From an uncultured Candidatus Micrarchaeota archaeon (GTDB lineage Archaea > Micrarchaeota > Micrarchaeia > Anstonellales > Bilamarchaeaceae): DNA of 64,000 nucleotides. This document shows, piece after piece, positions 17,900 to 59,502 of this stretch. The stretch spans positions 36,813-100,812 of the forward strand of contig CAIKOA010000008.1 of NCBI GenBank assembly GCA_903828955.1, read 5' to 3'. Position 1 is the stretch's first letter, and every line of letters begins with the position of its first letter. Both the position numbers and the translations under genes were made by a program. The notes below the pieces were generated by a model. It had not been told where the DNA came from, ran no database searches, and worked only from the letters and a program-made list of their open reading frames with translations.

Positions 17900-19465
17900 A
17901 TGGCAGAGAAAATGCTTACGCCTGAAGAGAAGGCGGCAGCAATGCCGGTTATACAGAGCGCGATGCAGGCATACCAGCAGCACTACGGGATAAAGCTTAC
18001 CGAGCAGGAAACTTCCCGCGTCATGGATAGGGCCCTTAACAATCTGAATTCCCAAGCAACGCCAAGCGAAGTGCGCGGGGCGGTAAGGAACCTGATGCTC
18101 GAGGTCCTCACCAAAAATGACCCTGCGCGCGCAACTGAGCTACAGATGCAGGCGCAGGGCGTTCCTGGATCAGAGAGAAGCAGGATACCCGCTATTGCTG
18201 AGAATGAAGGAGCCAATGCTGCAAATGCCGGCTTACCAAAAGAGGCCGGAGCCCAGACTCCGGCACAAAGCCCGATGTTTTTAGGCCCAAAGCATGGCCA
18301 GGAAACCCAGCAGGAGCAATTCGCTTCTGAGCAGAAGAAAATAATCGGACAGATTTTTGCAATAAGCCCAAAGCACTTTCAGGAAGCCATCCTTAGCAAA
18401 ATCGAGCCTCTCAAACCAAACGCAACCTCAGAAGAAAGGATGGAAAAGATAAAGGAACTGTTCAACCTTATAAAAAAAGGAGGAGTGCTAGGCATCGAAT
18501 ACCAGTTCTCCGAAGGCAGACCTCCGAAAACCCCTAACGAGGTCTTAACTCCTGAGAAAGACGGAAAAATGCGGGCGGATTGCGATGAGCTTTCCCTTTT
18601 CTTTATTGCTGCGGCACGAAAACTGAATATCGACCTTTCGGATGTAAGCATCGCAGTGGTTAAGTTCGAAGCGCAAAATCCCGTTTTGCTAAACAAAAAA
18701 GAGCCATTGCATGCTGCCATTCTGACAATCGGAAACGAGAAAGCTCTTCTGGACCCGGTTTTTGGAATAATGGAGAAAATGAACTCTTTTGGTTCAGAAG
18801 ACCTTCTCAAGGCATATAACGGAAAGTTTCTTCCGGGCAACTTTATGATAGTTGGGGTTTTGGATGTAAAGATTGCCAGCGATTTAGCAGATATGGCAAG
18901 CATTCATTTTCATGAGAAAGCCAAATACTATGCAAGCCAATTTCAAACCGAGAAAGCAATATCTACTTTAGAAATAGCAACCGCAATAAGCCCGAATAGC
19001 ATTAATCTCAAGGAGGAACTGCTCGGGCTTTATTTGAATATCGCGGACGAAGCGGTCAGCAGCGGGAAAATTTCCATGGCAGAAGCCAATTCCAAAAAGG
19101 CACTTTTGTTGGGCTCAAAGATCAGCTCTCCTGGCAGCGCGGTTATTGATAATCTTTACCATGCGCACGATGTTTTAGGGTCAGCATACATGAAACAGAA
19201 GAAATATTCTGCAGCCATTTCAGAGTTCGATGAAATGATTAGAATAAAACCTGCGGAGCCGTTGGCATACTATAATAAGTCATATATACTCTATGGTTTG
19301 GCAGGAGATGCATACCGCGCAGGCGCCGTAGAGGACGCTAAAAAATATCTTAGTGACGCAGAAAGCACGATGTTTGCCGCGTCACAAAGAGTTGCTGAAG
19401 AAAAATATGACCAAAATATGATGGAATTGTTCCGTCTTATCCAAGAAAAAAGGTCAAAACTTTAG
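17900..19465 (+). CDS. Multi-domain protein: conserved N-domain (shared with 59503..59805) + transglutaminase-like Cys-protease core + TPR-like helical C-terminus
   Basis: N-terminal 80 aa are about 60% identical to ORF 59503..59805 (MAEKMLTPEE[KR]AA..PV[IV]QSAMQ.Y.QHYG.KLTE.ETSRV). Middle: CDELSLFFIAAARKLNI...HAAILTIG...LDPVFG, a Cys-His-Asp transglutaminase-like core. C-terminus: TPR-like helices. Confidence 0.7.
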   Translation: MAEKMLTPEEKAAAMPVIQSAMQAYQQHYGIKLTEQETSRVMDRALNNLNSQATPSEVRGAVRNLMLEVLTKNDPARATELQMQAQGVPGSERSRIPAIAENEGANAANAGLPKEAGAQTPAQSPMFLGPKHGQETQQEQFASEQKKIIGQIFAISPKHFQEAILSKIEPLKPNATSEERMEKIKELFNLIKKGGVLGIEYQFSEGRPPKTPNEVLTPEKDGKMRADCDELSLFFIAAARKLNIDLSDVSIAVVKFEAQNPVLLNKKEPLHAAILTIGNEKALLDPVFGIMEKMNSFGSEDLLKAYNGKFLPGNFMIVGVLDVKIASDLADMASIHFHEKAKYYASQFQTEKAISTLEIATAISPNSINLKEELLGLYLNIADEAVSSGKISMAEANSKKALLLGSKISSPGSAVIDNLYHAHDVLGSAYMKQKKYSAAISEFDEMIRIKPAEPLAYYNKSYILYGLAGDAYRAGAVEDAKKYLSDAESTMFAASQRVAEEKYDQNMMELFRLIQEKRSKL

Positions 19466-20657: not shown

Positions 20658-21251
20658 CTAAGGGGCGCTTCCTTCAAGGGCTCCCTTCCTTTTCACCTTT
20701 CTTTCCACCAAATCAATTATCGTGGAAGGCTTCCTGTGAATTGTAGGCCCCCCATCCAAAACCAGATCCACTTCCTCCAGGATTCCCTTCTCAACCTCTT
20801 CGATGCAGGTAGGCGGCTCCTTCCCCTTCCTGTTCGCGCTCGTCGTAATTATCGGCATCCCCAAATCAGTGCTCAATTTCCGCATGAATGAATGCTCCGG
20901 AACCCGGATTCCAATTTTCCCGTCTTTTGCTACGGGCAATTTAATTTTCTCCCTGGTAACAAGCGTAACCGGCCCCGGAAGCAAATTCAGGACCGCAAGC
21001 CTTTCCGCCTCCCCTTCAACATCCGCGTACTCGCGAACCATATCCAGATTTCCCAAAATTACAGAGAAGGGCTCCCCCTTTCCCTTCTTTTTTATTTTCC
21101 TGATTCTCTCCACAACCTTCGGGTTCCGCGCATCCCCTCCAATCCCATAAAGCGTATCCGTCGGGTAAACCAAAACCCCTCCACTAAGCAGCACTTCCTT
21201 TGCCTGCTTGAATGCGCGCGCATGCTCGTAAAGTGAAATTCTCTCGCTCAT
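20658..21251 (-). CDS. tsaC: L-threonylcarbamoyladenylate synthase (TsaC/YrdC/Sua5 family)
   Basis: YrdC-domain pattern VLVYPTDTLYGIGGDARNP...SVILGNLDMV...ITTSANRKG...VLDGG. Confidence 0.85.
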   Translation of the reverse strand: MSERISLYEHARAFKQAKEVLLSGGVLVYPTDTLYGIGGDARNPKVVERIRKIKKKGKGEPFSVILGNLDMVREYADVEGEAERLAVLNLLPGPVTLVTREKIKLPVAKDGKIGIRVPEHSFMRKLSTDLGMPIITTSANRKGKEPPTCIEEVEKGILEEVDLVLDGGPTIHRKPSTIIDLVERKVKRKGALEGSAP

Positions 21252-22849
21252 ATCTCCTCTACCTTGATGGGCCCGTATTTCCTCTCAATCTTTCGGAATT
21301 TCTTTGACCCCTTCCCGAAAATATAAGAAATATCATTCGGCTTTGCAAGGACCACAAACTGGTTTTCCCTCTTCTCCACTTTGAATTCATGGTTCAAAAC
21401 GTGCGAAAGCATTTCCTCGAGCCTTCCGCCCCCTCCTCCTTCACCTCGATCTCTTGCGCCCCCGCCGCCTCTTCTTCCCCGTCCTGACCCCCGCGTGGCA
21501 GTTTCCATCGAGAGCACAACGGTTTCTTCTCCGAATTTATACAGCTCATATTCCAGTTCGCCCGATTCAAATTCCCGCACCTCAATTACCGGCCTGGCAA
21601 GGTCCTTTTCCCTCATCCCGGTGGGCACCTTCACGGTTTGCTCAAGATCATAAACTTTCCCCACGCGCCCCTTATCGATCAAAATAACAGTATCCACTAT
21701 CTGCGGAATCATTCCGAGTTCCACCTTCCCAATCAGCCTCTGGATCGCATCAATTGCCTTGTGCCCGTGCACCACTCCCACAAGCCCGATTCCGGATAGG
21801 CGCATATCCGCAAAAATCTGGAAATCCTTAATCTTGCGCACCTCATCATAGAAGGTATAGTCCGGCCGCACAAGCAGGAGAATTTCCTTCGTATTGTCAA
21901 AATCCCCTTCAAGGGCGGTATACTGCGTAATCTCCTCGCGCACCCGCATATCACGCGGGCTTTCCATCGTCTTCACTACTTTTTTCTTGTCGTAATAGTA
22001 CTCGGCAAGCGCGGCCGCAAAAGTAGTCTTTCCGCTTCCCGGAGGCCCGCAAATGAGGATTCCCTCCGCCTTATTGTCTATCCTGTCCTTCAATTTCTCC
22101 CGCACATTATAATCCGCAAATTTCAGTTTCTTTATCGGCCGAACTATGGTAATCTCAAATCCATCTGAAAATGGGGGCTTTGCAATTACAATCCGGTAAA
22201 CCCCCAGCTGTATTACAGAAGCTCCCTCCTTGTCTATTTCAAAGTAATAGCTCCTGTTCCGGTTCACCGCCTCAACGATCTCTTCCCCAATTGCGCGGAG
22301 GGCGTCAAGCGAAATCGGCGCCCCAACCTCCTCCACGATAACTTCCCCGGGCCGCCCCCTTTTCCGCACCACCTTGCAATCCTCCTTGAAGTGCACGCTC
22401 ATTACGTCCGGCTCGAAATACTTCGCAAACTTAAGCTCCTTCGCCTCCTCGTGCGAATGCAAATAAACAGTAAGAATCCCTTCTGCAAGGGCAGCCTCGT
22501 GCTGCACCTTGTCCCCGGTAATGAGCGTAGCCCCAAGCCCGCGCGCAAGCTCCCGGACTAAATGGTCAATCGCCCCTTCCTTTTTCGCAGCCCGCACCTG
22601 GTCCGGCCGCGGCCTCTCCCCTTCAATAATCACCTCTATTTCCGATTCCTTCTCGAGTGCGCGCAGTTTTCCAATCACAGAAAACCCTGCAAAACCCGTT
22701 TCCTTATTCATATTCGACTGGTATTCCAGCTCCGCAATCGTCGCCCTGTGTATAAAGAATTTCCCGCTAAGCCCCTTCTCCTTAATGAGCTCAAGTATCC
22801 TCCCATCCACAATTACGCTGGTGTCGCAAACATAATCCATCCCAATCAC
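21248..22849 (-). CDS. PIN-domain/PhoH-like ATPase with C-terminal KH domain (COG1855-type) carrying an RGG/Gly-Arg insert
   Basis: N-terminal PIN (CDTSVIVDGRI), Walker A GPPGSGKTT, C-terminal KH-like region. Insert RGSGRGRRGGGGARDRGEGGGGGR at 21437..21508. Confidence 0.8.
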   Translation of the reverse strand: MIGMDYVCDTSVIVDGRILELIKEKGLSGKFFIHRATIAELEYQSNMNKETGFAGFSVIGKLRALEKESEIEVIIEGERPRPDQVRAAKKEGAIDHLVRELARGLGATLITGDKVQHEAALAEGILTVYLHSHEEAKELKFAKYFEPDVMSVHFKEDCKVVRKRGRPGEVIVEEVGAPISLDALRAIGEEIVEAVNRNRSYYFEIDKEGASVIQLGVYRIVIAKPPFSDGFEITIVRPIKKLKFADYNVREKLKDRIDNKAEGILICGPPGSGKTTFAAALAEYYYDKKKVVKTMESPRDMRVREEITQYTALEGDFDNTKEILLLVRPDYTFYDEVRKIKDFQIFADMRLSGIGLVGVVHGHKAIDAIQRLIGKVELGMIPQIVDTVILIDKGRVGKVYDLEQTVKVPTGMREKDLARPVIEVREFESGELEYELYKFGEETVVLSMETATRGSGRGRRGGGGARDRGEGGGGGRLEEMLSHVLNHEFKVEKRENQFVVLAKPNDISYIFGKGSKKFRKIERKYGPIKVEEI

Positions 22850-22963
22850 TTGCGCTTATATGAAGAGCCCCATAATAAATAGTTTTCCAGATTATAGTGT
22901 ATGTAAGCGGTTCTTCATGAGCAAAACAGAATCTTTATAAACCGTTCTATGCACACTATTCTC

Positions 22964-23081
22964 TCGCCAACGGCCATAGGGAGCTGGAAACACCCGATCC
23001 CATCTCGAACTCGGAAGTTAAGCGGCTCTACGGCTTTATCTGTACTGCCCTAAGGGTGGGAAAATGGGCTGCTGTTGGCAC
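22964..23081 (+). rRNA. rrf: 5S rRNA, copy 1
   Basis: GCCAACGGCCATAGGGAGC...CCCGAACTCGGAAGTTAAGC...GTACTGCCCTAAGGGTGGGAA...GCTGTTGGC. Helix I closes the 5' and 3' ends. TTTATAA TATA box 25 nt upstream (22934..22940). Confidence 0.85.
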
Positions 23082-23087
23082 TTATAT

Positions 23088-24605
23088 TCATCTAGGCCTT
23101 TTTATCAGACGCTCTTTAAGCCCGTCTTGTTTTCCCGCCATCTCCTCTGCCAACTCCCCCTCGGGGCCCTTGTAATAGCCGATTACCTTGTTGTCCTTGC
23201 CGTACAATCTCACTCCGTCTATTATTGTTCCCCTTTCCTTTGCGTACATTTGAAGCAGGGGCCATATTTTTTCTCCATTGTATTCATACATATGATCATA
23301 GTCGATAAGGTACATCTTGTTTGTTTTCGTGTCCCTTGCAATTGAAATAGAATGCCCCTGATCCTTACGAAAAAGCTCCACAGTGTACGCCTCTGCTCCA
23401 TTCATCTGCAGGAACTTGGTTGCCAAGGAACTTATATTGCCGCAAATGCCCGCATCAGCCGTTTTCCTGCTCAAAATCCATTCCCGGATGCCCCTGTACG
23501 CGTTATCAACCCCTATCTCCTCCAACGTCCTTGCGTCTTCAGAATATGGTTTGTTTACGGCATCCGCCAGGGGGCCACTGTAATTCTTTTCCCCTGCCCA
23601 TGCCAGTGCTTGCGCAGCCGCGACTAAATCAAAAAAAGAGCTTCCCTTGTATTTTTTTGCAAACTCTCCGAATGTTTCGGAGCTTTTCATCCTCTCCGTA
23701 AAAAGGAAAAGCGCCGGAGTCCAGTGGGCCGTTAGCTCAGCAGTATCGTTCCTCGTGCCGCCCTTCTCCCGCCCCACCGCAAACCCCCTCTCTATTTTTA
23801 CTTTGCCCGTTTCCTTTTCTCCAAGGCGGAACTTTACCCCCACGCCGATTTCATCCGCAAACATTTCGTTTTGCGCCTTCGCCCCCCATACGTATATCTC
23901 AGGCCCCACGTACTTGCCTTCTAAGGAAACCGCAGCCTCGCCCCCGGTTTTAAACGGCGTATGGAGCATCTCCACACGGATGCTGGCGCGGTCAAGGTGT
24001 ATCACCACCCCAGCCCTCGCCTCGTCATGGTGGGGGATTGAGGCCTTCGCCCCTGCATACTCATACGGGCGGTCCGGTCCAAAGAATACCTGCTCCTTCG
24101 CATAAAAAATCAGGGGTTCGAAAATGAAAGCAGCCCCTCCCGAAGCGGTAAAGTGGGGGGATTCATAGGAAAATACGCCCCCTCCCTGCGCCCACACTCC
24201 GGCTTCCACCCCCAGCCTTAGCCCGTACCCCCCGTCGCTCATTGTTTCCCAAACACCCCCTGCGCTTATGTTCTTGAACATGGAGGTGCGCACCTCGCTG
24301 GTTCCCGGGATTATTGGCATGCTTACGCTTCCGTACAGGTCAAAGGCGCCCACTTTCCCCCCTGCTTCCAGCGACGGAGTTACAAAGAAAAGCGGCCTGT
24401 AATAGTTCAGCTCCAGCGCGCCCGCCCCGGCCCCTATTTGCACCGGTCCGAAAACACCCTTCACCTCTCCCTTGGTAACCTCTCCGGCCTGGCTGCGCCC
24501 GACATTCGACAATTCGAATTTTAGATAATCCAAAAACGATTTTTCCCCTGTTTTTACCGGAACAGTTTCCTTTAGTTCAGCGGATTCTTCCGATTTTTGG
24601 TCCAT
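23088..24605 (-). CDS. Hypothetical protein: Gly-rich beta-strand N-terminal half + C-terminal Cys/His/Asp transglutaminase-like segment
   Basis: 505-aa ORF lying exactly between the two 5S copies. C-terminus GICGNISSLATKFLQMNGAEAYTVELFRKDQGHSISIARDTKTNKMYLIDYD (C..H..D spacing of the papain/TGase fold). No signal peptide. Confidence 0.55.
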   Translation of the reverse strand: MDQKSEESAELKETVPVKTGEKSFLDYLKFELSNVGRSQAGEVTKGEVKGVFGPVQIGAGAGALELNYYRPLFFVTPSLEAGGKVGAFDLYGSVSMPIIPGTSEVRTSMFKNISAGGVWETMSDGGYGLRLGVEAGVWAQGGGVFSYESPHFTASGGAAFIFEPLIFYAKEQVFFGPDRPYEYAGAKASIPHHDEARAGVVIHLDRASIRVEMLHTPFKTGGEAAVSLEGKYVGPEIYVWGAKAQNEMFADEIGVGVKFRLGEKETGKVKIERGFAVGREKGGTRNDTAELTAHWTPALFLFTERMKSSETFGEFAKKYKGSSFFDLVAAAQALAWAGEKNYSGPLADAVNKPYSEDARTLEEIGVDNAYRGIREWILSRKTADAGICGNISSLATKFLQMNGAEAYTVELFRKDQGHSISIARDTKTNKMYLIDYDHMYEYNGEKIWPLLQMYAKERGTIIDGVRLYGKDNKVIGYYKGPEGELAEEMAGKQDGLKERLIKRPR

Positions 24606-24762
24606 GCAACTTCAATTCTAGATTACGCACCCAAATTTAAAATGGGTATTGGCGCGTGCATGGAAATGGATTCGAGCCCTTATCCGGAGGAGCGGGGGAA
24701 TTCCTGCGGTTCAGCATGAGCGAAACAGAATCTTTATTACTCGTTCTATGCGCACTATTCTC

Positions 24763-24880
24763 TCGCCAACGGCCATAGGGAGCTGGAAACACCCGATCCC
24801 ATCTCGAACTCGGAAGTTAAGCGGCTCTACGGCTTTATCTGTACTGCCCTAAGGGTGGGAAAATGGGCTGCTGTTGGCAC
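24763..24880 (+). rRNA. rrf: 5S rRNA, copy 2
   Basis: Identical to copy 1 over the mature region. The duplicated block extends from about 24711 to 24890 (about 190 bp, about 95% identity with 22911..23090), including the upstream promoter-like segment. Confidence 0.85.
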
Positions 24881-24961
24881 TTATATTTACTTACTTATTC
24901 TGATTCTTGCGTTTAGATAGAATTTTATACCTCACCGCATTATTCGCCATCAGGTGAAAAA

Positions 24962-25279
24962 ATGCTAAAAGTAACTCTTTCGCACATCGGTGCGGTCTCT
25001 TTGGGAAGGTTGCTCGCAATCTGGTCCTTCGTAATCGGTCTGATCCTGCTGGTTGTTTATGGATTAATATCCATAGTGCTGGCGCTTATCGGGATGATTT
25101 CAGGGACGGATGTGGTGAGCACAATAGTCGCATTGCTCATAAGCCTCGTAATGGGTGTCGTAGGGCTCATCGTATTCGCAATTGCGATGTTCATCTGGGG
25201 CTTCCTCTGCGCGATAGTCTACAACATAATTCTGGGAGTGGGCGGCGGAATAGACGTCGACCTCAAGGAGCGCTCCTGA
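24962..25279 (+). CDS. Small hydrophobic membrane protein (3 TM helices)
   Basis: 105 aa, almost entirely hydrophobic helices (LLAIWSFVIGLILLVVYGLISIVLALIGMI...). Confidence 0.5.
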   Translation: MLKVTLSHIGAVSLGRLLAIWSFVIGLILLVVYGLISIVLALIGMISGTDVVSTIVALLISLVMGVVGLIVFAIAMFIWGFLCAIVYNIILGVGGGIDVDLKERS

Positions 25280-25418: not shown

Positions 25419-25503
25419 TGCAGGGGACGAGATTTGAACTCGCGAACGGACTTACCGACCAGGCCCTGAACCTGGCGCCTTTGGCCACTCGGCAACCCCT
25501 GCT
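25419..25503 (-). tRNA. tRNA-Leu (anticodon CAG), long variable arm
   Basis: Reverse complement: GCAGGGG-TT-GCCGAGTGGCCAAAGGC...CCAGG-TTCAGGG-CCTGG (anticodon CAG), variable arm, T-arm GCGAG-TTCAAAT-CTCGT, acceptor CCCCTGC + A. T-rich tract follows. Confidence 0.8.
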
Positions 25504-25675
25504 TAAACTTTTTTGTCCTTTTGCATACCTTGTGGCAAAAAAGTTTATTAAAAACCACTAGGTTTTCTTTGCTTTGAAACGCTTTGTCCATCGCTGTTTG
25601 GGCCGCGTCTTTTTTATCACTCTTTGCCAAAACAGAAAGCAGAAGATAAATAGGTAATATTCTTTTAAAAAACAA

Positions 25676-26269: not shown

Positions 26270-26385
26270 TAAGACTTGCGTTAGCCCATTATGCGGAAAA
26301 ACGTTTTTAAAATCAAACCTAAATCTTTATAAACATCTCTTTGCATAATTTATAACAAGACAATCTATCCGGGTCGGAGCCACCC

Positions 26386-27501
26386 ATGCCAAAAAACAAC
26401 GATGTTGAAAAACCTGGTTCTATCCAAAGCCGCAACCGTAGCAGCGCCCCTCCGGGCCCGCTCAGTAGGGAACCGAAGATTGAGCAAATCCAGGGCGCAT
26501 CTTCAGCTCAAGAAAAAAATCCGGGAAAAGGGGCTGATGCAGAGCGGAGGAATCTTGCTGCGAGCGAAGAAGAGAAACCAAAAGCGTCTGGGGAAGCGCT
26601 TTCCAAACCCCAGAATGCTCCCCCGCGTTCCACTCATGAAGACGCGAAAGCGCTTGCTTCAAAAACCATAAAGGAAGCAAAGGAAAAAGCGAAGGCTCGC
26701 CGGCTATCTGCATCATTGCCCCCTGCATCCCAGACCCTGCCGATAACCCCAGTTTCTATTGCATTGGACAGCAGCATGGATGCATCCGAGGTCCAGGCAA
26801 AGATATCTCAGAGTGTGCTTGAGGCTCTCAATGAATCGCGCCGAATGCAGGGAAGGCCGGAGATGAGCAAGGAAGAACTCCAGAGAAAGATGGAAGAATG
26901 GGCTGCCAACGGGGAAAAGGAAAGAAGGCGGAATGAAGATGGAGCCAGGATATATCCTATTTTAAAAGATCCAGCTCAGAGGGCAAAACTTGAGTTAGCG
27001 CTCAGGCATTGCATTTCAAAAAAACAATTCCGGTTCGTTATTGAGTTCCATAAGCACTACTCACCTGCAGGAGGCGTGGAGTATAGCTCCTGGTTTTATC
27101 CGTTCATTAAAAGAGAGCTAAGTTTGCTGCTGGATGGGAATCCTGCCGGGCAAATAGAGTTAGCGGAGGCCTTAGGGGTCAGGCCGGAAAACGCAATAGT
27201 AGAGCTGCTTGGGAGGGCGTTTTACCGCGGGGACATTGCAGAAATCCGCAGGCTGGAGAAAAGGTTCCAGCCAAGCTATTATGAGGAGAAACTTGCGAGA
27301 ATACGCGCCACCGGCCTCTCTGATGATAACGAAGGAGAACATGCGGGCAGAAAGTTGGCCAAGGACCTGGGCGTGCTTTCTGACTATGACGATGCAAAAT
27401 TGTTCGAGCCCCCAGAACCAGAGAGCTTGTATGACGCCTGGGTAGATGGGAAAAACGTTTTGGAGGTCTTTTTAGACAACTTTGTTGTAAAGAAGAAATA
27501 A
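26386..27501 (+). CDS. Hypothetical protein with disordered N-terminal third
   Basis: 371-aa ORF. N-terminal 150 aa are Pro/Ala/Ser/Lys-rich. C-terminal globular part has no recognised motif. Confidence 0.5.
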   Translation: MPKNNDVEKPGSIQSRNRSSAPPGPLSREPKIEQIQGASSAQEKNPGKGADAERRNLAASEEEKPKASGEALSKPQNAPPRSTHEDAKALASKTIKEAKEKAKARRLSASLPPASQTLPITPVSIALDSSMDASEVQAKISQSVLEALNESRRMQGRPEMSKEELQRKMEEWAANGEKERRRNEDGARIYPILKDPAQRAKLELALRHCISKKQFRFVIEFHKHYSPAGGVEYSSWFYPFIKRELSLLLDGNPAGQIELAEALGVRPENAIVELLGRAFYRGDIAEIRRLEKRFQPSYYEEKLARIRATGLSDDNEGEHAGRKLAKDLGVLSDYDDAKLFEPPEPESLYDAWVDGKNVLEVFLDNFVVKKK

Positions 27502-56041: not shown

Positions 56042-56496
56042 TGATGGGGGGTTGCTTGGGATGAAACACTTTAGGGGGCGCTCCCCCTGAAGGGTTCTTC
56101 ACGGTTTCCGTCTGGGTTCCCTACACCACAATCGTCTCAAAAGGAACCATCTGAAGGAGCCCGCAAATCCATTCCGGATCGGCCTTTTTATGCTTTTCAC
56201 CAACTGTTTTTCAGAATACGAGAGAGGGAAAAACGCCCCCGGTGGAAAAGCCCAAAAATGCGGGTTTTTTCAGGAGCGGTGCAACAAATTTTCAGAAGTA
56301 TTCTCCGTCTGAGGGGCAAAACCTTTTTAAACACGTATATTCATATCTATCCTTTACCTTTTACGCTTCGAGCGCCCTCTTCGACGAATGGCGCGATGAA
56401 AAACGAATTTATTCATATAGGGTAGGCTATCTCTTCACGTTGGGGAGACAGCCGGCGTTTATAACGCCAAAAGAGTGTGAAGTAACTAGCTATGAA

Positions 56497-59396
56497 GTTT
56501 GGATATGTTGCATCCATGTAGTGGATGACTAGGCTAGTGCCAGCAAACTCACGTGGTAAGCTGCGATAAGCTTGGGTTAGGTGCACGCAACCATTGACCC
56601 CAAGATCTGAGTGAGTGCCCCTCGGGAAACTGAGGCGCACAGCTACCCCGGGAATTGAAACATCTAATTACCGGGTGGAAAAGAAACCAATTGGGATTCG
56701 GTTAGTAAGTGGACTGAAAGCCGAACAGGCCGTGCTGAATTCCCTGCAGCAATGCAGGGCAAATGTGGCGGGGAATATCCATTCTCTGAGCAGAAGTCCC
56801 CTGGAATGGGGTGCCATAGCGAGTGAAAGCCTCGTATGCGAAGGAGTGTGGAGTGAACCAAAACGAGTACCGTCCACCGGATAGCGGGCGGGAATATGGG
56901 GGTATCAACCTCCAAGCCTAAATATTGGGCATTAGACCGATAGCGAATGAGTAACGCGAGTGAACGTTGAAAAGGACCCCGGAAGGGGTGTTAAAAGAAC
57001 CTGAAACTACATGGAGACAGGAAGGTAAGGCATGAAAGGGTTATATGTTTGCCGAAGTGAATCCCAGAAATGGTTGGATCGAGGCAAAAGCACCAGTGTC
57101 TTATCATTCTTCTCGAAGCAAGAGCCAGGGAGTTTATCTGTGTGGCGAGACGAAAGTCGAAGCGAAAGCGAGCGTCCGCAGGTAACCAGGGACATCCTCT
57201 GAAAAGGGGACCAGTCACACAGATCAGACCCGAAGCCGGCGCGATCTACTCCTGACCAGGGTGAAGCCAGCCTGTCCGTTGGTGGAGGCCCGCAACCAGT
57301 GATGGTATATTCCTCTTGGGTGAGTCAGGTGTAGGGGTGATAGTCCAGTCGAGCTTGGCAATAGCGGGTTCCCCTCGAAATGTATCTCAGTACAGCGTCT
57401 TCCGAGGATGATAACGGGGTAGAGCACTGAATGGGAAGAGCGGCTCCGAAAGGTGTCACTTCCCTATCAAACTCCGAATTCGTTATCTCCGTAGACGAAG
57501 GCAGTCGGGTTCACGGGGTAAGCTTGTGAACCCTTACGGGAACGACCGTACGTGAGGTTAAGGGCCCTAAATTCTGGTTAAGTGTGAATACAAAGGAGCT
57601 TCTATCCTTAGACAGCTGGAAGGTAGGCTTAGAAGCAGCCATCCTTTAAACAACGCGTAATAGCGGACCAGTCGAGGATGCAGGTTCCGAAAATTGACGG
57701 GGCTAAACCAGATCCCGATACCCCACCCGAGCCAAAAGCTCGTGGAGTAGGGGGGCGAACGGGGCGGGTAGAAGCAAGGCGGTAACGTCTTGTGGACCGT
57801 TCTGTTATGAATATCCTGGTGTCAGTAGTAGCATATCCAAGTGAGAATCTTGGACGTCTGATAGGGCACGGTTTCCTCAGCCATGTTTGTCAGCTGAGGG
57901 TTAGGCGATCCTAAGTGGTGAGGTAACACCGGAGCCACGAAAGGGAAGCAGGTTAATATTCCTGCCCAACAGAGGTAGATGCGGCAACGCAAGTGCGGTT
58001 TTTGACCGCTTGGGATAAGCTGAGCCCGGGAGACCGGGTTTAACAGCGATACATCCATCGAGTCTTATCATGAGGAGAAGTGGATGAAACGCTGGAATAG
58101 GAGCAATCTTTGGCCGATTCCTGAGTGCCATGAAAAGAAAACCGTTCCGATCCTCTATTTCCGTACCTAGAACCAATACAGGTGCCCCTGGCTGAAAAGG
58201 CCCAGACGTGTTAAGACAACCCAGGCAAGGGAACTCGGCAAAATAGTCCCGTAACTTAGGAAGAAGGGATGCCTACCATCTTGTAGATGGTAGGTGGCAC
58301 TGACAAGGGGAGTGCGACTGTTTATCAAAAACACAGATCACCGCAAGGTCGTAAGGCTTAGTATGGTGGTCGACGCCTGCCCACTGCCAGTACCTGAACG
58401 CCCCATTCAAGGGGAAGAAGGGCTGGTAAAGAGCGGGGGTAACTCTGACCCTCTTAAGGTAGCGTAATACCTCGCCGCTTAATTGGCGGCTTGCATGAAC
58501 GGCGTAACGCCACTCCTACTGTCCCTGCCTGGGACTTAGTGAACTCATTGCCCGGTGAAGATACCGGGGACTTCCAGAGGGAAACGAAGACCCCGTGGAG
58601 CTTTACTATAGCCTGATGTTGCTGTATCGGTGTGGCTACCGAGCGTAGATGGGAGCCGTCGAGACCGTATCTCCGGATACGGTGGAGGCAAAATTGAAAC
58701 ACCATCTAGTTATGCTGATACTGCTTACCCGCAAGGGGACAGCATCAGGTGGATAGTTTGGCTGGGGCGGTACGCCCTCGATAGAAAAACAAGGGCGCCC
58801 AATGTTCTGCTCAGGCGGGTCAGAAATCCGCTGTAGAGGGTTAAAGACAAATGCAGGGCTGACTGTGTTCCTAAAAGCGTGGAACGCAGAGACGAAAGTC
58901 GGGCTTAACGAACCTTAGTATTCTATTGATGGGAATCTAAGCTGTCAGACAAGCTACCCCGGGGGTAACAGGCTCGTCGCGGGCGAGAGTACACATCGAC
59001 CTCGCGGCTTGGTACATCGCTGTCGGCTTGGGACATCCTGGTGGTGCAGGAGCCACCAAGGGTTGGGTTGTACATCCATTAAAGTCCCACATGAGCTGGG
59101 TTCAGTACGTCGCGAGACAGTACGGTAGTATCTTCTGGAAGTGTAGGTTCTTGAGGGGAAGGAACTTTGAGTACGAGAGGAACGGAGTCCCGGGGCCTCT
59201 GGTGTATCGGTTGTGTCAATGCATTGCCGAGCAGCTACGCCCTCCGTCGATAAGACCTGAAAGCATCTAAGGTCGAAGCGACACCCAAAACGAGGAACCA
59301 AAGACCGCCTATAGTAGATAGGTTTGATAGGAGCGGGGTGTAAGTCCTTAGCTAACGCGAGGGATTCAGCCTGCGCTTACTAAAGGTATAATCCCA
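56497..59396 (+). rRNA. rrl: 23S (large subunit) rRNA, about 2.9 kb, not linked to 16S or 5S
   Basis: 5' region GTGGATG...AAGCTGCGATAAGC...GGGAATTGAAACATCTAATTACC (domain I). Sarcin-ricin and peptidyl-transferase-like segments further in. Ends bracketed by a complementary processing stem (56483..56496 / 59397..59412). All ORFs called inside were rejected. Confidence 0.85.
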
Positions 59397-59502
59397 AATT
59401 TCATAGCTAGTTATCTTTTTCATTCTATTTTATTTTACTTCGTCTTAGCGTGAGCGCTGCCCAGTTCCTATCCCAAAATTAAGTTTAAGTTAAATCCGCG
59501 TT

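What the first reader, a model, noticed from the sequence alone, without database searches (positions are those of the whole stretch)
22911..24890. Two near-identical 5S rRNA genes (with their promoter-like upstream segments) flank a single protein-coding gene on the opposite strand
About 190-bp direct repeats (22911-23090 and 24711-24890, about 95% identical) each contain a TATA-like box and a complete 5S rRNA. They bracket the 505-aa ORF 23088..24605, a Gly-rich beta-strand protein with a TGase-like C-terminus and no signal peptide. That ORF is transcribed antisense to both 5S genes, and its stop lies 7 nt from the 3' end of 5S copy 1. Either a gene was inserted between tandem 5S copies, or 5S was duplicated around it. 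Either way the repeats make a recombination-prone cassette, and the protein is expressed in rRNA-linked context.
Basis: seen in the sequence. Interest (0 to 1): 0.6.

Follow-up and report, generated by a model that had tools for sequence, protein, structure and literature searches.

The report
Duplicated 5S rRNA genes bracket a hypervariable gene
In this Micrarchaeota (DPANN archaeon) genome, a short 5S rRNA gene with its promoter was copied to the other side of its neighbouring gene, which is ordinary; the more interesting part is that neighbour, an unannotated, unusually fast-changing protein with a porin-like barrel joined to a protease-like domain.

Summary
Two identical, full-length 5S rRNA genes (22966-23080 and 24765-24879, + strand) lie in 182-bp direct repeats (22907-23088 and 24706-24887, 175/182 identical). 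They bracket a 505-aa ORF on the opposite strand (23088-24605).

Seven related Micrarchaeota contigs keep the same gene neighbourhood. Each has only one 5S gene, convergent with the orthologous ORF and 6-40 nt past its stop, and none has a 5S upstream. Copy 1 is therefore ancestral, and copy 2 is most likely a lineage-specific copy of the whole 5S transcription unit.

All 7 differences between the repeats fall in the first 47 nt (promoter side). The last 135 nt are identical, which suggests selection or gene conversion.

Archaea with one 23S gene and two 5S genes are already known, so the duplication itself is ordinary.

The bracketed gene is more notable. It has no Pfam, NCBIfam or PADLOC match. 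A confident AlphaFold model (pLDDT 93.5) shows an outer-membrane-porin-like β-barrel followed by a domain with an invariant Cys-His and a mostly conserved Asp/Asn. The gene is also hypervariable: two contigs whose neighbouring proteins are 81-93% identical carry versions only 28% identical, and DNA similarity breaks exactly at the 5S trailer. Its function is unknown.

The parts
22907..23088 (+). Direct repeat copy 1: the ancestral 5S transcription unit (promoter, about 12-nt leader, 5S, 8-nt trailer CTTATATT)
   Evidence: the repeat finder; alignment. This copy sits in the position orthologous to the single 5S of the relatives. Its promoter is 2-5 positions closer to the relatives' promoters than copy 2's is.
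22930..22942 (+). BRE/TATA-like promoter element AATCTTTATAAAC of 5S copy 1 (inferred)
   Evidence: Sequence. The motif is enriched in the window: 10 matches at up to 2 mismatches against 1.7 expected, including one upstream of the 23S gene. It aligns with TTTTTAAA in the relatives.
22966..23080 (+). 5S rRNA gene, copy 1
   Evidence: Rfam RF00001, 80.8 bits, full length. It folds into a three-helix junction.
23088..24605 (-). 505-aa gene (P0001), a member of an uncharacterised, mostly Micrarchaeota family. Residues about 28-277 form a closed antiparallel beta-barrel, 288-401 are helical, and 388-480 form a papain/transglutaminase-like core with C388, H418 and D435.
   Evidence: ORF; homologues; AF2 model pLDDT 93.5; Foldseek hits to OmpG, TamA, PorV and LptD barrels; triad conservation; PDB profile hit 4xz7; no Pfam, NCBIfam or PADLOC hit.
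24633..24643 (-). TATA-like box (ATTTTAAATTT on the - strand) about 33 nt upstream of the ORF's ATG. This is the gene's own promoter, outside the repeat (inferred).
   Evidence: Read directly from the sequence.
24706..24887 (+). Direct repeat copy 2: the derived, lineage-specific copy of the 5S transcription unit, inserted between the divergent promoters of the 505-aa gene and the 105-aa membrane-protein gene
   Evidence: It is absent at this position in all seven related contigs. The intergenic distance is 356 nt here against 71-138 nt in the relatives.
24765..24879 (+). 5S rRNA gene, copy 2, identical to copy 1
   Evidence: Rfam; blastn 100% identity.
24962..25279 (+). 105-aa membrane-protein gene, the conserved left-hand neighbour of the slot
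   Evidence: ORF; 60-68% aa identity to the relatives' 106-110-aa neighbour.
21248..22849 (-). PIN-domain/PilT-like ATPase gene, the conserved right-hand neighbour
   Evidence: Pfam PIN and T2SSE; 73-78% aa identity to relatives.

Best explanation
Ancestral state. The locus holds a 5S rRNA gene that is unlinked from the 23S gene and independently transcribed. In this Micrarchaeota clade it sits tail-to-tail with a clade-specific protein gene, a few nucleotides from that gene's stop.

The duplication. In the window's lineage the whole 182-bp 5S transcription unit was copied. The unit comprises the BRE/TATA promoter, a short leader, the 115-nt 5S and an 8-nt trailer. The copy landed in the intergenic region on the other side of the protein gene, so the gene is now bracketed by direct repeats.

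Current state of the copies. Both look functional: each has an identical full-length RNA and a TATA box. The transcribed part has stayed identical, through purifying selection and probably gene conversion, while the promoter-proximal 47 nt have drifted. Copy 2 carries the derived states.

The bracketed gene. It is a long-standing resident of the slot, not an insertion. It encodes a beta-barrel joined to a Cys-His-Asp/Asn papain/transglutaminase-like domain. It is one allele of a hypervariable cassette that is exchanged between lineages as a gene-sized unit, with the conserved 5S gene forming one edge of the exchanged segment.

Shown versus inferred. Shown: the repeats, 5S identity, synteny, single 5S in relatives, hypervariability and its breakpoints, and the predicted fold. 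Inferred: the direction and mechanism of the duplication, activity of both promoters, gene conversion, and the protein's function.
For: - Two full-length identical 5S genes lie in 182-nt repeats.
- The 23S gene is 33 kb away with no 5S or 16S beside it. Unlinked rRNA genes are reported as common in DPANN (PMC8997704), and independent 5S transcription units are known in archaea (PMC8339473).
- Seven related contigs share the neighbourhood (membrane protein, barrel gene, 5S, PIN-ATPase, Sua5). Each has one convergent 5S and none has one upstream.
- The single-5S state occurs on at least four separate deep branches of the protein tree: P0002, P0004, P0009 and P0011.
- Copy 1 matches the relatives at 22939, 22941, 22942 and 22953, where copy 2 differs, and copy 1 is closer to them in every comparison.
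- All 7 differences fall in the first 47 of 182 nt. The hypergeometric probability is about 5e-5 (my arithmetic).
- Orthologous pairs with 4-7 upstream differences show 3-6 differences over the same 135 nt, so zero differences hints at homogenisation.
- Independent assemblies reproduce both junctions.
- Hypervariability: L007 versus L013 have neighbouring proteins 81-93% identical and flanking DNA 78-89% identical, but barrel proteins only 28% identical. Similarity ends just after the shared TATA box and resumes exactly at the 8-nt 5S trailer. Across all pairs between different lineages the barrel gene is 26-41% identical while PIN is 73-93%; the closely related pair L001-L002 shares one allele (85% versus 95%).
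Against: - No genome closer than about 39% (barrel protein) or about 75% (PIN) identity to the window was found, so the duplication cannot be dated or polarised by a near outgroup.
- The protein tree is star-like, with bootstraps of 5-78%. A scenario with the window as outgroup and a single loss in the other lineages is therefore not formally excluded.
- No reads were available, so neither copy number nor the resolved arrangement could be checked directly.
- No expression data exist. Copy 2's TATA box (TTTATTAC) is more degenerate and could be weak.
- The duplication mechanism is unknown: no target-site duplication or microhomology was seen at the repeat ends.
Confidence: 0.7

Rival explanations
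1. Footprint of cassette exchange. A circularised or tandem [5S + barrel gene] unit recombined with the resident 5S gene, either by Campbell-type single crossover or by tandem duplication of the 1799-nt unit followed by loss of one gene copy. This would leave a 5S on each side of the surviving allele. The differences in the promoter part would then reflect donor-versus-recipient divergence rather than drift after a simple copy.
For: The slot undergoes gene-sized allelic replacement with one breakpoint exactly at the 5S trailer. That is the same boundary as the right end of the window's repeat. The family is multi-copy in some genomes: there is a paralogue at L001 819-2384, and one MAG holds two paralogues, so unit duplications do occur. 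Repeat similarity ends sharply at both ends.
Against: No remnant of a second gene copy lies beyond copy 2. This route needs an extra precise deletion. No circular or tandem intermediates were observed. It is not distinguishable from a simple segmental copy with the present data.
Confidence: 0.15
2. Both 5S copies are ancestral to the clade. The relatives lost the upstream one, and gene conversion keeps the window's copies nearly identical.
For: Weak tree resolution leaves the window's position open. The transcribed part shows signs of homogenisation.
Against: All seven related contigs, on at least four deep branches, lack the upstream copy, and they have short intergenic regions (71-138 nt) with no 5S remnant. 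Copy 2 carries derived promoter states.
Confidence: 0.07
3. Assembly artefact: a single 5S was mis-joined or duplicated by the assembler.
For: Short-read assemblies of the same population fragment at the repeat. Contigs start or end inside the 5S at window positions 24869, 24792, 23026 and 22977 (my arithmetic).
Against: The two copies differ at 7 positions and have different unique flanks. One independent contig spans copy 2 with both unique flanks, and two others span copy 1 with both unique flanks. Copy 1's position is orthologous to the relatives' 5S.
Confidence: 0.03
4. Integrated mobile element: the 1.6-kb segment is cargo that integrated into the 5S gene and duplicated its attachment site, as archaeal integrative elements do at tRNA genes.
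For: Direct repeats containing a stable-RNA gene flank a discrete segment.
Against: There is no integrase or any other gene in the segment. The gene occupies the same slot next to a single 5S in relatives. Neither the protein family nor the 5S sequence was found in viral contigs. The repeat includes the complete promoter and gene rather than a 3' gene fragment.
Confidence: 0.02

Closest known systems
Archaeal genomes with one 16S, one 23S and two 5S rRNA genes, and unlinked rRNA genes (e.g. Thermococcus kodakarensis, Methanomethylophilus alvi, Thermoplasma-type organisation)
   Same: A surplus, independently transcribed 5S gene with its own promoter, unlinked from the 23S gene. T. kodakarensis has one 16S-23S operon and two 5S genes (PMC7137780). 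M. alvi has one 16S, one 23S and two 5S genes, not in an operon (PMC10673518). Unlinked rRNA genes are common in DPANN (PMC8997704).
   Different: Here the two copies lie 1.8 kb apart as direct repeats bracketing a single protein gene on the opposite strand. The duplication is lineage-specific within a clade that otherwise keeps one 5S locked tail-to-tail with that gene.
Replacement-type flexible genomic islands / hypervariable surface-protein loci (own knowledge: the same slot carries highly divergent alleles between conserved flanks, e.g. O-antigen or S-layer loci)
   Same: Conserved flanks at 78-89% DNA identity surround an unalignable gene of the same family and length in the same slot. 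The breakpoints are sharp.
   Different: This is a single-gene cassette. One flank is a 5S rRNA gene. The protein's location and function are unknown, and only one closely related pair of alleles has been documented so far.
Transglutaminase-like / papain-like cysteine peptidase superfamily (Pfam PF01841, clan Peptidase_CA)
   Same: The Cys-His-Asp/Asn order and spacing match (C388, H418, D435). Cys opens a helix, and His and Asp lie on the following strands. The motif G-x-C...G-x-x-A-Y...H...D aligns with PDB 4xz7.
   Different: No member reaches the Pfam gathering score: 0 hits for P0001, and 1 of 56 relatives at E 0.0037. The domain is fused to an N-terminal large beta-barrel, an architecture I found no description of.
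Bacterial outer-membrane beta-barrels (OmpG, TamA/BamA barrel, PorV, LptD, OMPLA)
   Same: A closed antiparallel barrel of about 14-16 Gly-rich, amphipathic strands. Foldseek probability is 1.0, and TM-score normalised to the target is 0.55-0.61 for OmpG.
   Different: The host is an archaeon with no known outer membrane. There is no signal peptide. Sequence identity is 8-13%. The barrel is N-terminal and followed by a soluble-looking enzyme domain. Membrane insertion is untested.

Membership tests
5S rRNA (Rfam RF00001) | Covariance-model score above the gathering threshold over the full model | tested here: met
   Both copies score 80.8 bits against 38, covering model positions 1-120.
5S rRNA (Rfam RF00001) | Three-helix-junction secondary structure | tested here: met
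   The MFE fold gives a closing helix plus two arms. The Rfam structural alignment agrees.
5S rRNA (Rfam RF00001) | Own archaeal promoter and evidence of expression | tested here: inconclusive
   A TATA-like box lies 25-30 nt upstream in both copies and in orthologues. No transcript data are available.
Transglutaminase-like / papain-like cysteine peptidases (PF01841, clan CA) | Significant match to the family HMM | tested here: not met
   No Pfam hit for P0001 at E<=0.1. Only 1 of 56 relatives hits Transglut_core, at E 0.0037.
Transglutaminase-like / papain-like cysteine peptidases (PF01841, clan CA) | Conserved Cys-His-Asp/Asn triad in that order, with Cys at a helix N-terminus and His/Asp on following beta-strands | tested here: met
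   C388 is present in 54/54 sequences, H418 in 54/54, and D/N435 in 49/54. Helix 388-401 is followed by strands 405-413, 416-425 and 430-435.
Transglutaminase-like / papain-like cysteine peptidases (PF01841, clan CA) | Structural or sequence similarity to a solved member | tested here: inconclusive
Transglutaminase-like / papain-like cysteine peptidases (PF01841, clan CA) | Thiol-dependent peptidase or transamidase activity | not testable with these tools
   Needs biochemistry.
Outer-membrane beta-barrel proteins | Closed antiparallel transmembrane-type barrel fold | tested here: met
   AF2 pLDDT is 93.5, with about 15 strands at residues 28-277. Foldseek hits OmpG, TamA, PorV and LptD. Strands alternate hydrophobic and polar residues. 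This is fold level only.
Outer-membrane beta-barrel proteins | N-terminal signal peptide for export | tested here: not met
   The N-terminus MDQKSEESAELKETVPVKTGEK is charged with no hydrophobic segment, and most relatives are the same. Only P0011 has a possible lipobox extension, whose start codon is uncertain.
Outer-membrane beta-barrel proteins | Host has an outer membrane and BAM-type insertion machinery | not tested
   The organism is a Micrarchaeota archaeon. No BamA search was done. From general knowledge these archaea have a single membrane.
Integrative element with att-site duplication | Integrase within the bracketed segment, and the segment absent from relatives | tested here: not met
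   The segment holds only the 505-aa gene. The gene is present in the same slot in seven related contigs.
Replacement-type hypervariable locus | Same slot, conserved flanks, highly divergent homologous gene, sharp breakpoints | tested here: met
   L007 versus L013/L014 and L004 versus L013. This was shown in relatives; no close relative of the window was available.

The most novel reading that the evidence does not exclude
The 5S gene is the conserved homology anchor of a single-gene exchange cassette. The cassette encodes a Micrarchaeota-specific, rapidly diversifying pore-like beta-barrel fused to a Cys-His-Asp/Asn enzyme domain. This protein would act at the interface with the host cell or with viruses, an outer-membrane-style barrel in an organism without an outer membrane. 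In the window's lineage the cassette has a 5S anchor on both sides: 135 identical nt, each about 85% identical to 5S genes across the clade. That would make the gene swappable or excisable by homologous recombination alone.
Probability: 0.15. Interest if true: 0.75.

Novelty: new variant of a known kind. Interest (0 to 1): 0.42.

Why it matters
The 5S duplication matters little on its own. It adds an example of how unlinked rRNA genes in reduced DPANN genomes duplicate as tiny promoter-to-trailer units and stay identical.

The bracketed gene could matter more. Micrarchaeota depend on host archaea, and the molecules that mediate contact are largely unknown. This protein is clade-restricted and unannotated. 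It has a confidently predicted porin-like barrel plus a catalytic-looking Cys-His-Asp/Asn domain, and it changes by whole-gene replacement between otherwise near-identical genomes. That pattern is what one expects of a host- or virus-interaction factor, which makes it a concrete, testable candidate. The fixed position next to a 5S gene also gives a simple handle (5S-anchored PCR or read recruitment) for surveying its allelic diversity in metagenomes.

Tried and rejected
- Pfam, NCBIfam and PADLOC scans of the 505-aa protein and its relatives gave no family.
- phmmer against PDB, with the whole protein and with the C-terminal 162 aa, gave nothing meaningful.
- The first AlphaFold run used a 2-sequence alignment and was unusable (pLDDT 33.8). 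It was replaced by a run with 56 sequences.
- The search for homologous proteins with the C-terminal domain alignment returned nothing.
- The metagenome locus search with the 14-sequence alignment failed because no conserved stretch was long enough. The 5-sequence alignment gave only 2 loci.
- Similarity beyond the repeat ends was tested against shuffles and is absent. The apparent upstream extension in the MAFFT alignment is therefore not real.
- The bacterial promoter/terminator scan is uninformative for an archaeon.
- The integrated-mobile-element idea was rejected: there is no integrase, the gene is syntenic in relatives, and nothing was found in viral contigs.
- The 521-aa TPR protein at 17900-19465 looked TGase-like by eye but shows no relation to the C-terminal domain profile.
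- No GC anomaly marks the gene as recently imported.
- Literature searches for Micrarchaeota/DPANN beta-barrel, porin or transglutaminase proteins found no description of this family.
Full report
**What is there.**
- The window is archaeal. It contains an archaeal-type 23S rRNA at 56494-59402 with no 16S or 5S beside it.
- Its closest relatives are metagenome-assembled genomes labelled Candidatus Micrarchaeota/Micrarchaeia.
- Rfam finds exactly two 5S rRNA genes, at 22966-23080 and 24765-24879 on the + strand. Each scores 80.8 bits over the full model, and they are identical.
- They sit in a 182-nt direct repeat (22907-23088 / 24706-24887; 175/182 identical; spacing 1799 nt).
- Each repeat begins with a BRE/TATA-like element: AATCTTTATAAAC at 22930, and the variant AATCTTTATTACT at 24729. 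This lies about 25-30 nt before the 5S. Each repeat ends 8 nt after the 5S (CTTATATT).
- Sequence outside the repeat is no more similar than shuffled controls.
- Between the repeats, on the opposite strand, is a 505-aa ORF (23088..24605). Its stop is 7 nt from the 3' end of 5S copy 1.

**Is it an assembly artefact?**
- Reads were not available.
- The identical protein occurs on contigs from four other metagenome assemblies.
- Converted to window coordinates (my arithmetic), two contigs run from inside copy 2 through the gene, across copy 1 and on into the PIN-ATPase/Sua5 genes.
- One runs from 26281 across copy 2 and the gene and stops inside copy 1 at 23026.
- One covers 22977-24887.
- Each repeat is thus spanned with both of its unique flanks in at least one independent assembly. 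The breaks fall inside the identical 5S sequence, as expected for a true repeat.
- The copies also differ at seven positions. I rate an artefact at about 3%.

**Which came first?**
- The 505-aa protein has no Pfam family and very few relatives: 79 hits among 1.84 billion representative proteins, about a dozen of them full length.
- I fetched the genomic context of these relatives.
- Seven contigs (L001, L002, L003, L004, L007, L013/L014, L016) share the window's neighbourhood. The order is a 105-110-aa membrane protein, the barrel gene, the 5S, a 232-246-aa membrane protein (absent in the window; L016 also has an extra 207-aa gene here), a PIN/PilT-like ATPase, then Sua5.
- Every one of them has one 5S gene, convergent with the barrel gene and 6-40 nt from its stop. 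None has a 5S on the upstream side, where the spacer is only 71-138 nt, against 356 nt in the window.
- These single-5S loci carry proteins from at least four deep branches of the family tree, though that tree is poorly resolved.
- More distant family members (L006, L009-L012, L015) are not next to a 5S.
- In the promoter part, copy 1 shares the relatives' bases at 22939, 22941, 22942 and 22953, where copy 2 differs. Copy 1 is 2-5 positions closer to every orthologue.
- The most economical reading is that copy 1 is the ancestral gene. Copy 2 is a lineage-specific copy of the whole transcription unit, dropped between the divergent promoters of the barrel gene (TATA-like box at 24633-24643, - strand) and the 105-aa gene.
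- So 5S was duplicated around a resident gene; the gene was not inserted between tandem 5S copies.

**Age and homogenisation.**
- All seven differences lie in the first 47 nt of the repeat. The remaining 135 nt (12-nt leader, 5S, trailer) are identical.
- The chance of that distribution is about 5e-5 (my arithmetic).
- Orthologous pairs with a comparable 4-7 differences in the upstream 47 nt have 3-6 differences in the same 135 nt.
- Complete identity therefore suggests concerted evolution (gene conversion) on top of purifying selection, but it does not prove it.

**How unusual is the duplication?**
- It is not very unusual. Unlinked rRNA genes are reported as prevalent in DPANN (PMC8997704).
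- 5S genes are independent transcription units in several archaeal groups (PMC8339473).
- Archaea with one 16S, one 23S and two 5S genes are documented: Thermococcus kodakarensis (PMC7137780) and Methanomethylophilus alvi (PMC10673518).
- The specific features here are the bracketing geometry and the conserved tail-to-tail junction between the 5S and the barrel gene.
- Because of that junction, the oligo-T tract that could terminate 5S copy 1 (TTTTT at 23100-23104) lies inside the codons for the protein's basic C-terminal tail. Likewise, the mRNA would run into antisense 5S sequence that contains a T-run (sequence). Whether this overlap has any regulatory role is unknown.

**The bracketed protein.**
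- With a 56-sequence alignment, AlphaFold gives a confident model (pLDDT 93.5, pTM 0.91).
- Residues about 28-277 form about 15 long antiparallel strands. Residues 288-401 are helical. Residues 388-480 form a helix followed by a beta-sheet.
- Foldseek against the PDB matches the N-terminal half to bacterial outer-membrane barrels: OmpG (TM-score 0.55-0.61 normalised to the target), TamA, PorV, LptD, OMPLA and VDAC. Probability is about 1.0 at 8-13% identity. The viral library gives the same kind of hits, weakly.
- The strands are 15% Gly. They alternate a hydrophobic face with a polar or charged face.
- There is no signal peptide. One relative, P0011, may have a lipoprotein-like N-terminal extension, but its start codon is uncertain.
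- In the C-terminal domain, C388 and H418 are present in 54 of 54 aligned relatives and D/N435 in 49 of 54. The Cys opens a helix, and His and Asp sit on the next strands.
- A profile of this domain hits PDB 4xz7 at E 0.0016 with Cys, His and Asp aligned.
However, the family does not pass the Pfam model, so I describe it as 'works like' rather than as a member.
- The barrel looks like an outer-membrane protein. It fails the membership criteria that could be checked (signal peptide, host type), and membrane insertion is untested.

**Hypervariability (the unexpected result).**
- L007 and L013 are close relatives. Their neighbouring proteins are 81-93% identical (PIN 93%, 237-aa protein 88%, membrane protein 85%), and their flanking DNA is 78-89% identical.
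- Their barrel proteins are both 526 aa but only 28% identical, and the DNA is unalignable.
- DNA similarity stops just after the shared TATA box upstream of the gene. It resumes exactly at the 8-nt trailer of the 5S.
- L004 carries the L007 allele at 90% DNA identity.
- Across all pairs of syntenic loci from different lineages, the barrel protein is 26-41% identical while the PIN-ATPase is 73-93%. The closely related pair L001-L002 shares one allele (85% versus 95%).
- The slot next to the 5S therefore holds a gene-sized cassette that is replaced as a unit, with the conserved 5S forming one edge. This resembles replacement-type flexible islands and hypervariable surface-protein loci (own knowledge).
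- It also raises an alternative origin for copy 2: a footprint of recombination between [5S + gene] units. I cannot separate that from a simple segmental copy. No remnant of a second gene copy is present.

**Verdict.**
- The duplication is a new instance of a known kind of event.
- The bracketed gene belongs to an uncharacterised, clade-restricted, hypervariable family with an unusual predicted architecture. That is where further work would pay off. Its function remains inferred only.

Noticed in passing
window 26314-26345 (+); also 56320-56332 (+): A third copy of the 5S promoter-like segment (78% identical over 32 nt, with an exact AATCTTTATAAAC at 26322) lies upstream of the 371-aa ORF at 26386. 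A related AACCTTTTTAAAC lies about 160 nt upstream of the 23S gene. The 13-mer matches 10 times at up to 2 mismatches against 1.7 expected. It is probably this organism's strong-promoter consensus.
   Followed up: partly
window 56494-59402 (+): The 23S rRNA gene stands alone. No 16S or 5S is adjacent anywhere in the 64-kb window, and the 5S genes are 33 kb away. This is a fully unlinked rRNA organisation.
   Followed up: partly
L007 3943-5581 versus L013 3901-5614 (and L004): There is a gene-sized allelic replacement of the barrel gene between otherwise 78-89% identical contigs. The breakpoints lie just after the shared TATA box and exactly at the 5S trailer, and the proteins are 28% identical.
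   Followed up: yes
L001 819-2384; L009 and L011 (same MAG, GCA_016932815.1): The family is multi-copy in some genomes. L001 has a second paralogue (31% identical to the window's protein) between a 111-aa gene and a tRNA. The window has only 173 nt at that position (25503-25675). One MAG carries two paralogues, neither next to a 5S.
   Followed up: partly
window 22850-22906 versus L001 11741-12439, L007 5796-6509: Relatives have a 232-246-aa multi-pass membrane-protein gene between the 5S and the PIN-ATPase gene. The window has no homologue of it anywhere and only 57 nt at that position. This is a second rearrangement at the same locus.
   Followed up: partly
L016 1062-2882 (P0011): This family member sits in the 5S-adjacent slot and has an N-terminal extension of about 100 aa. 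The extension begins with a lipoprotein-like signal (…LSACLALSGCAST…), unlike the other members. The true start codon is uncertain.
   Followed up: partly
window 25419-25502 (-): ARAGORN calls a tRNA-Leu(CAG) here, but Rfam's tRNA model did not report it at the gathering threshold.
   Followed up: no
window 17900-19465 (+): A 521-aa orphan protein whose only recognisable feature is a C-terminal TPR. A Cys…His…Asp stretch looked TGase-like by eye, but it shows no relation to the barrel protein's C-terminal domain profile.
   Followed up: partly
window 21248-22849 (-): The PIN/PilT-like ATPase carries a Gly/Arg-rich (RGG-like) insert, …RGSGRGRRGGGGARDRGEGGGGGR…, near its C-terminus.
   Followed up: no
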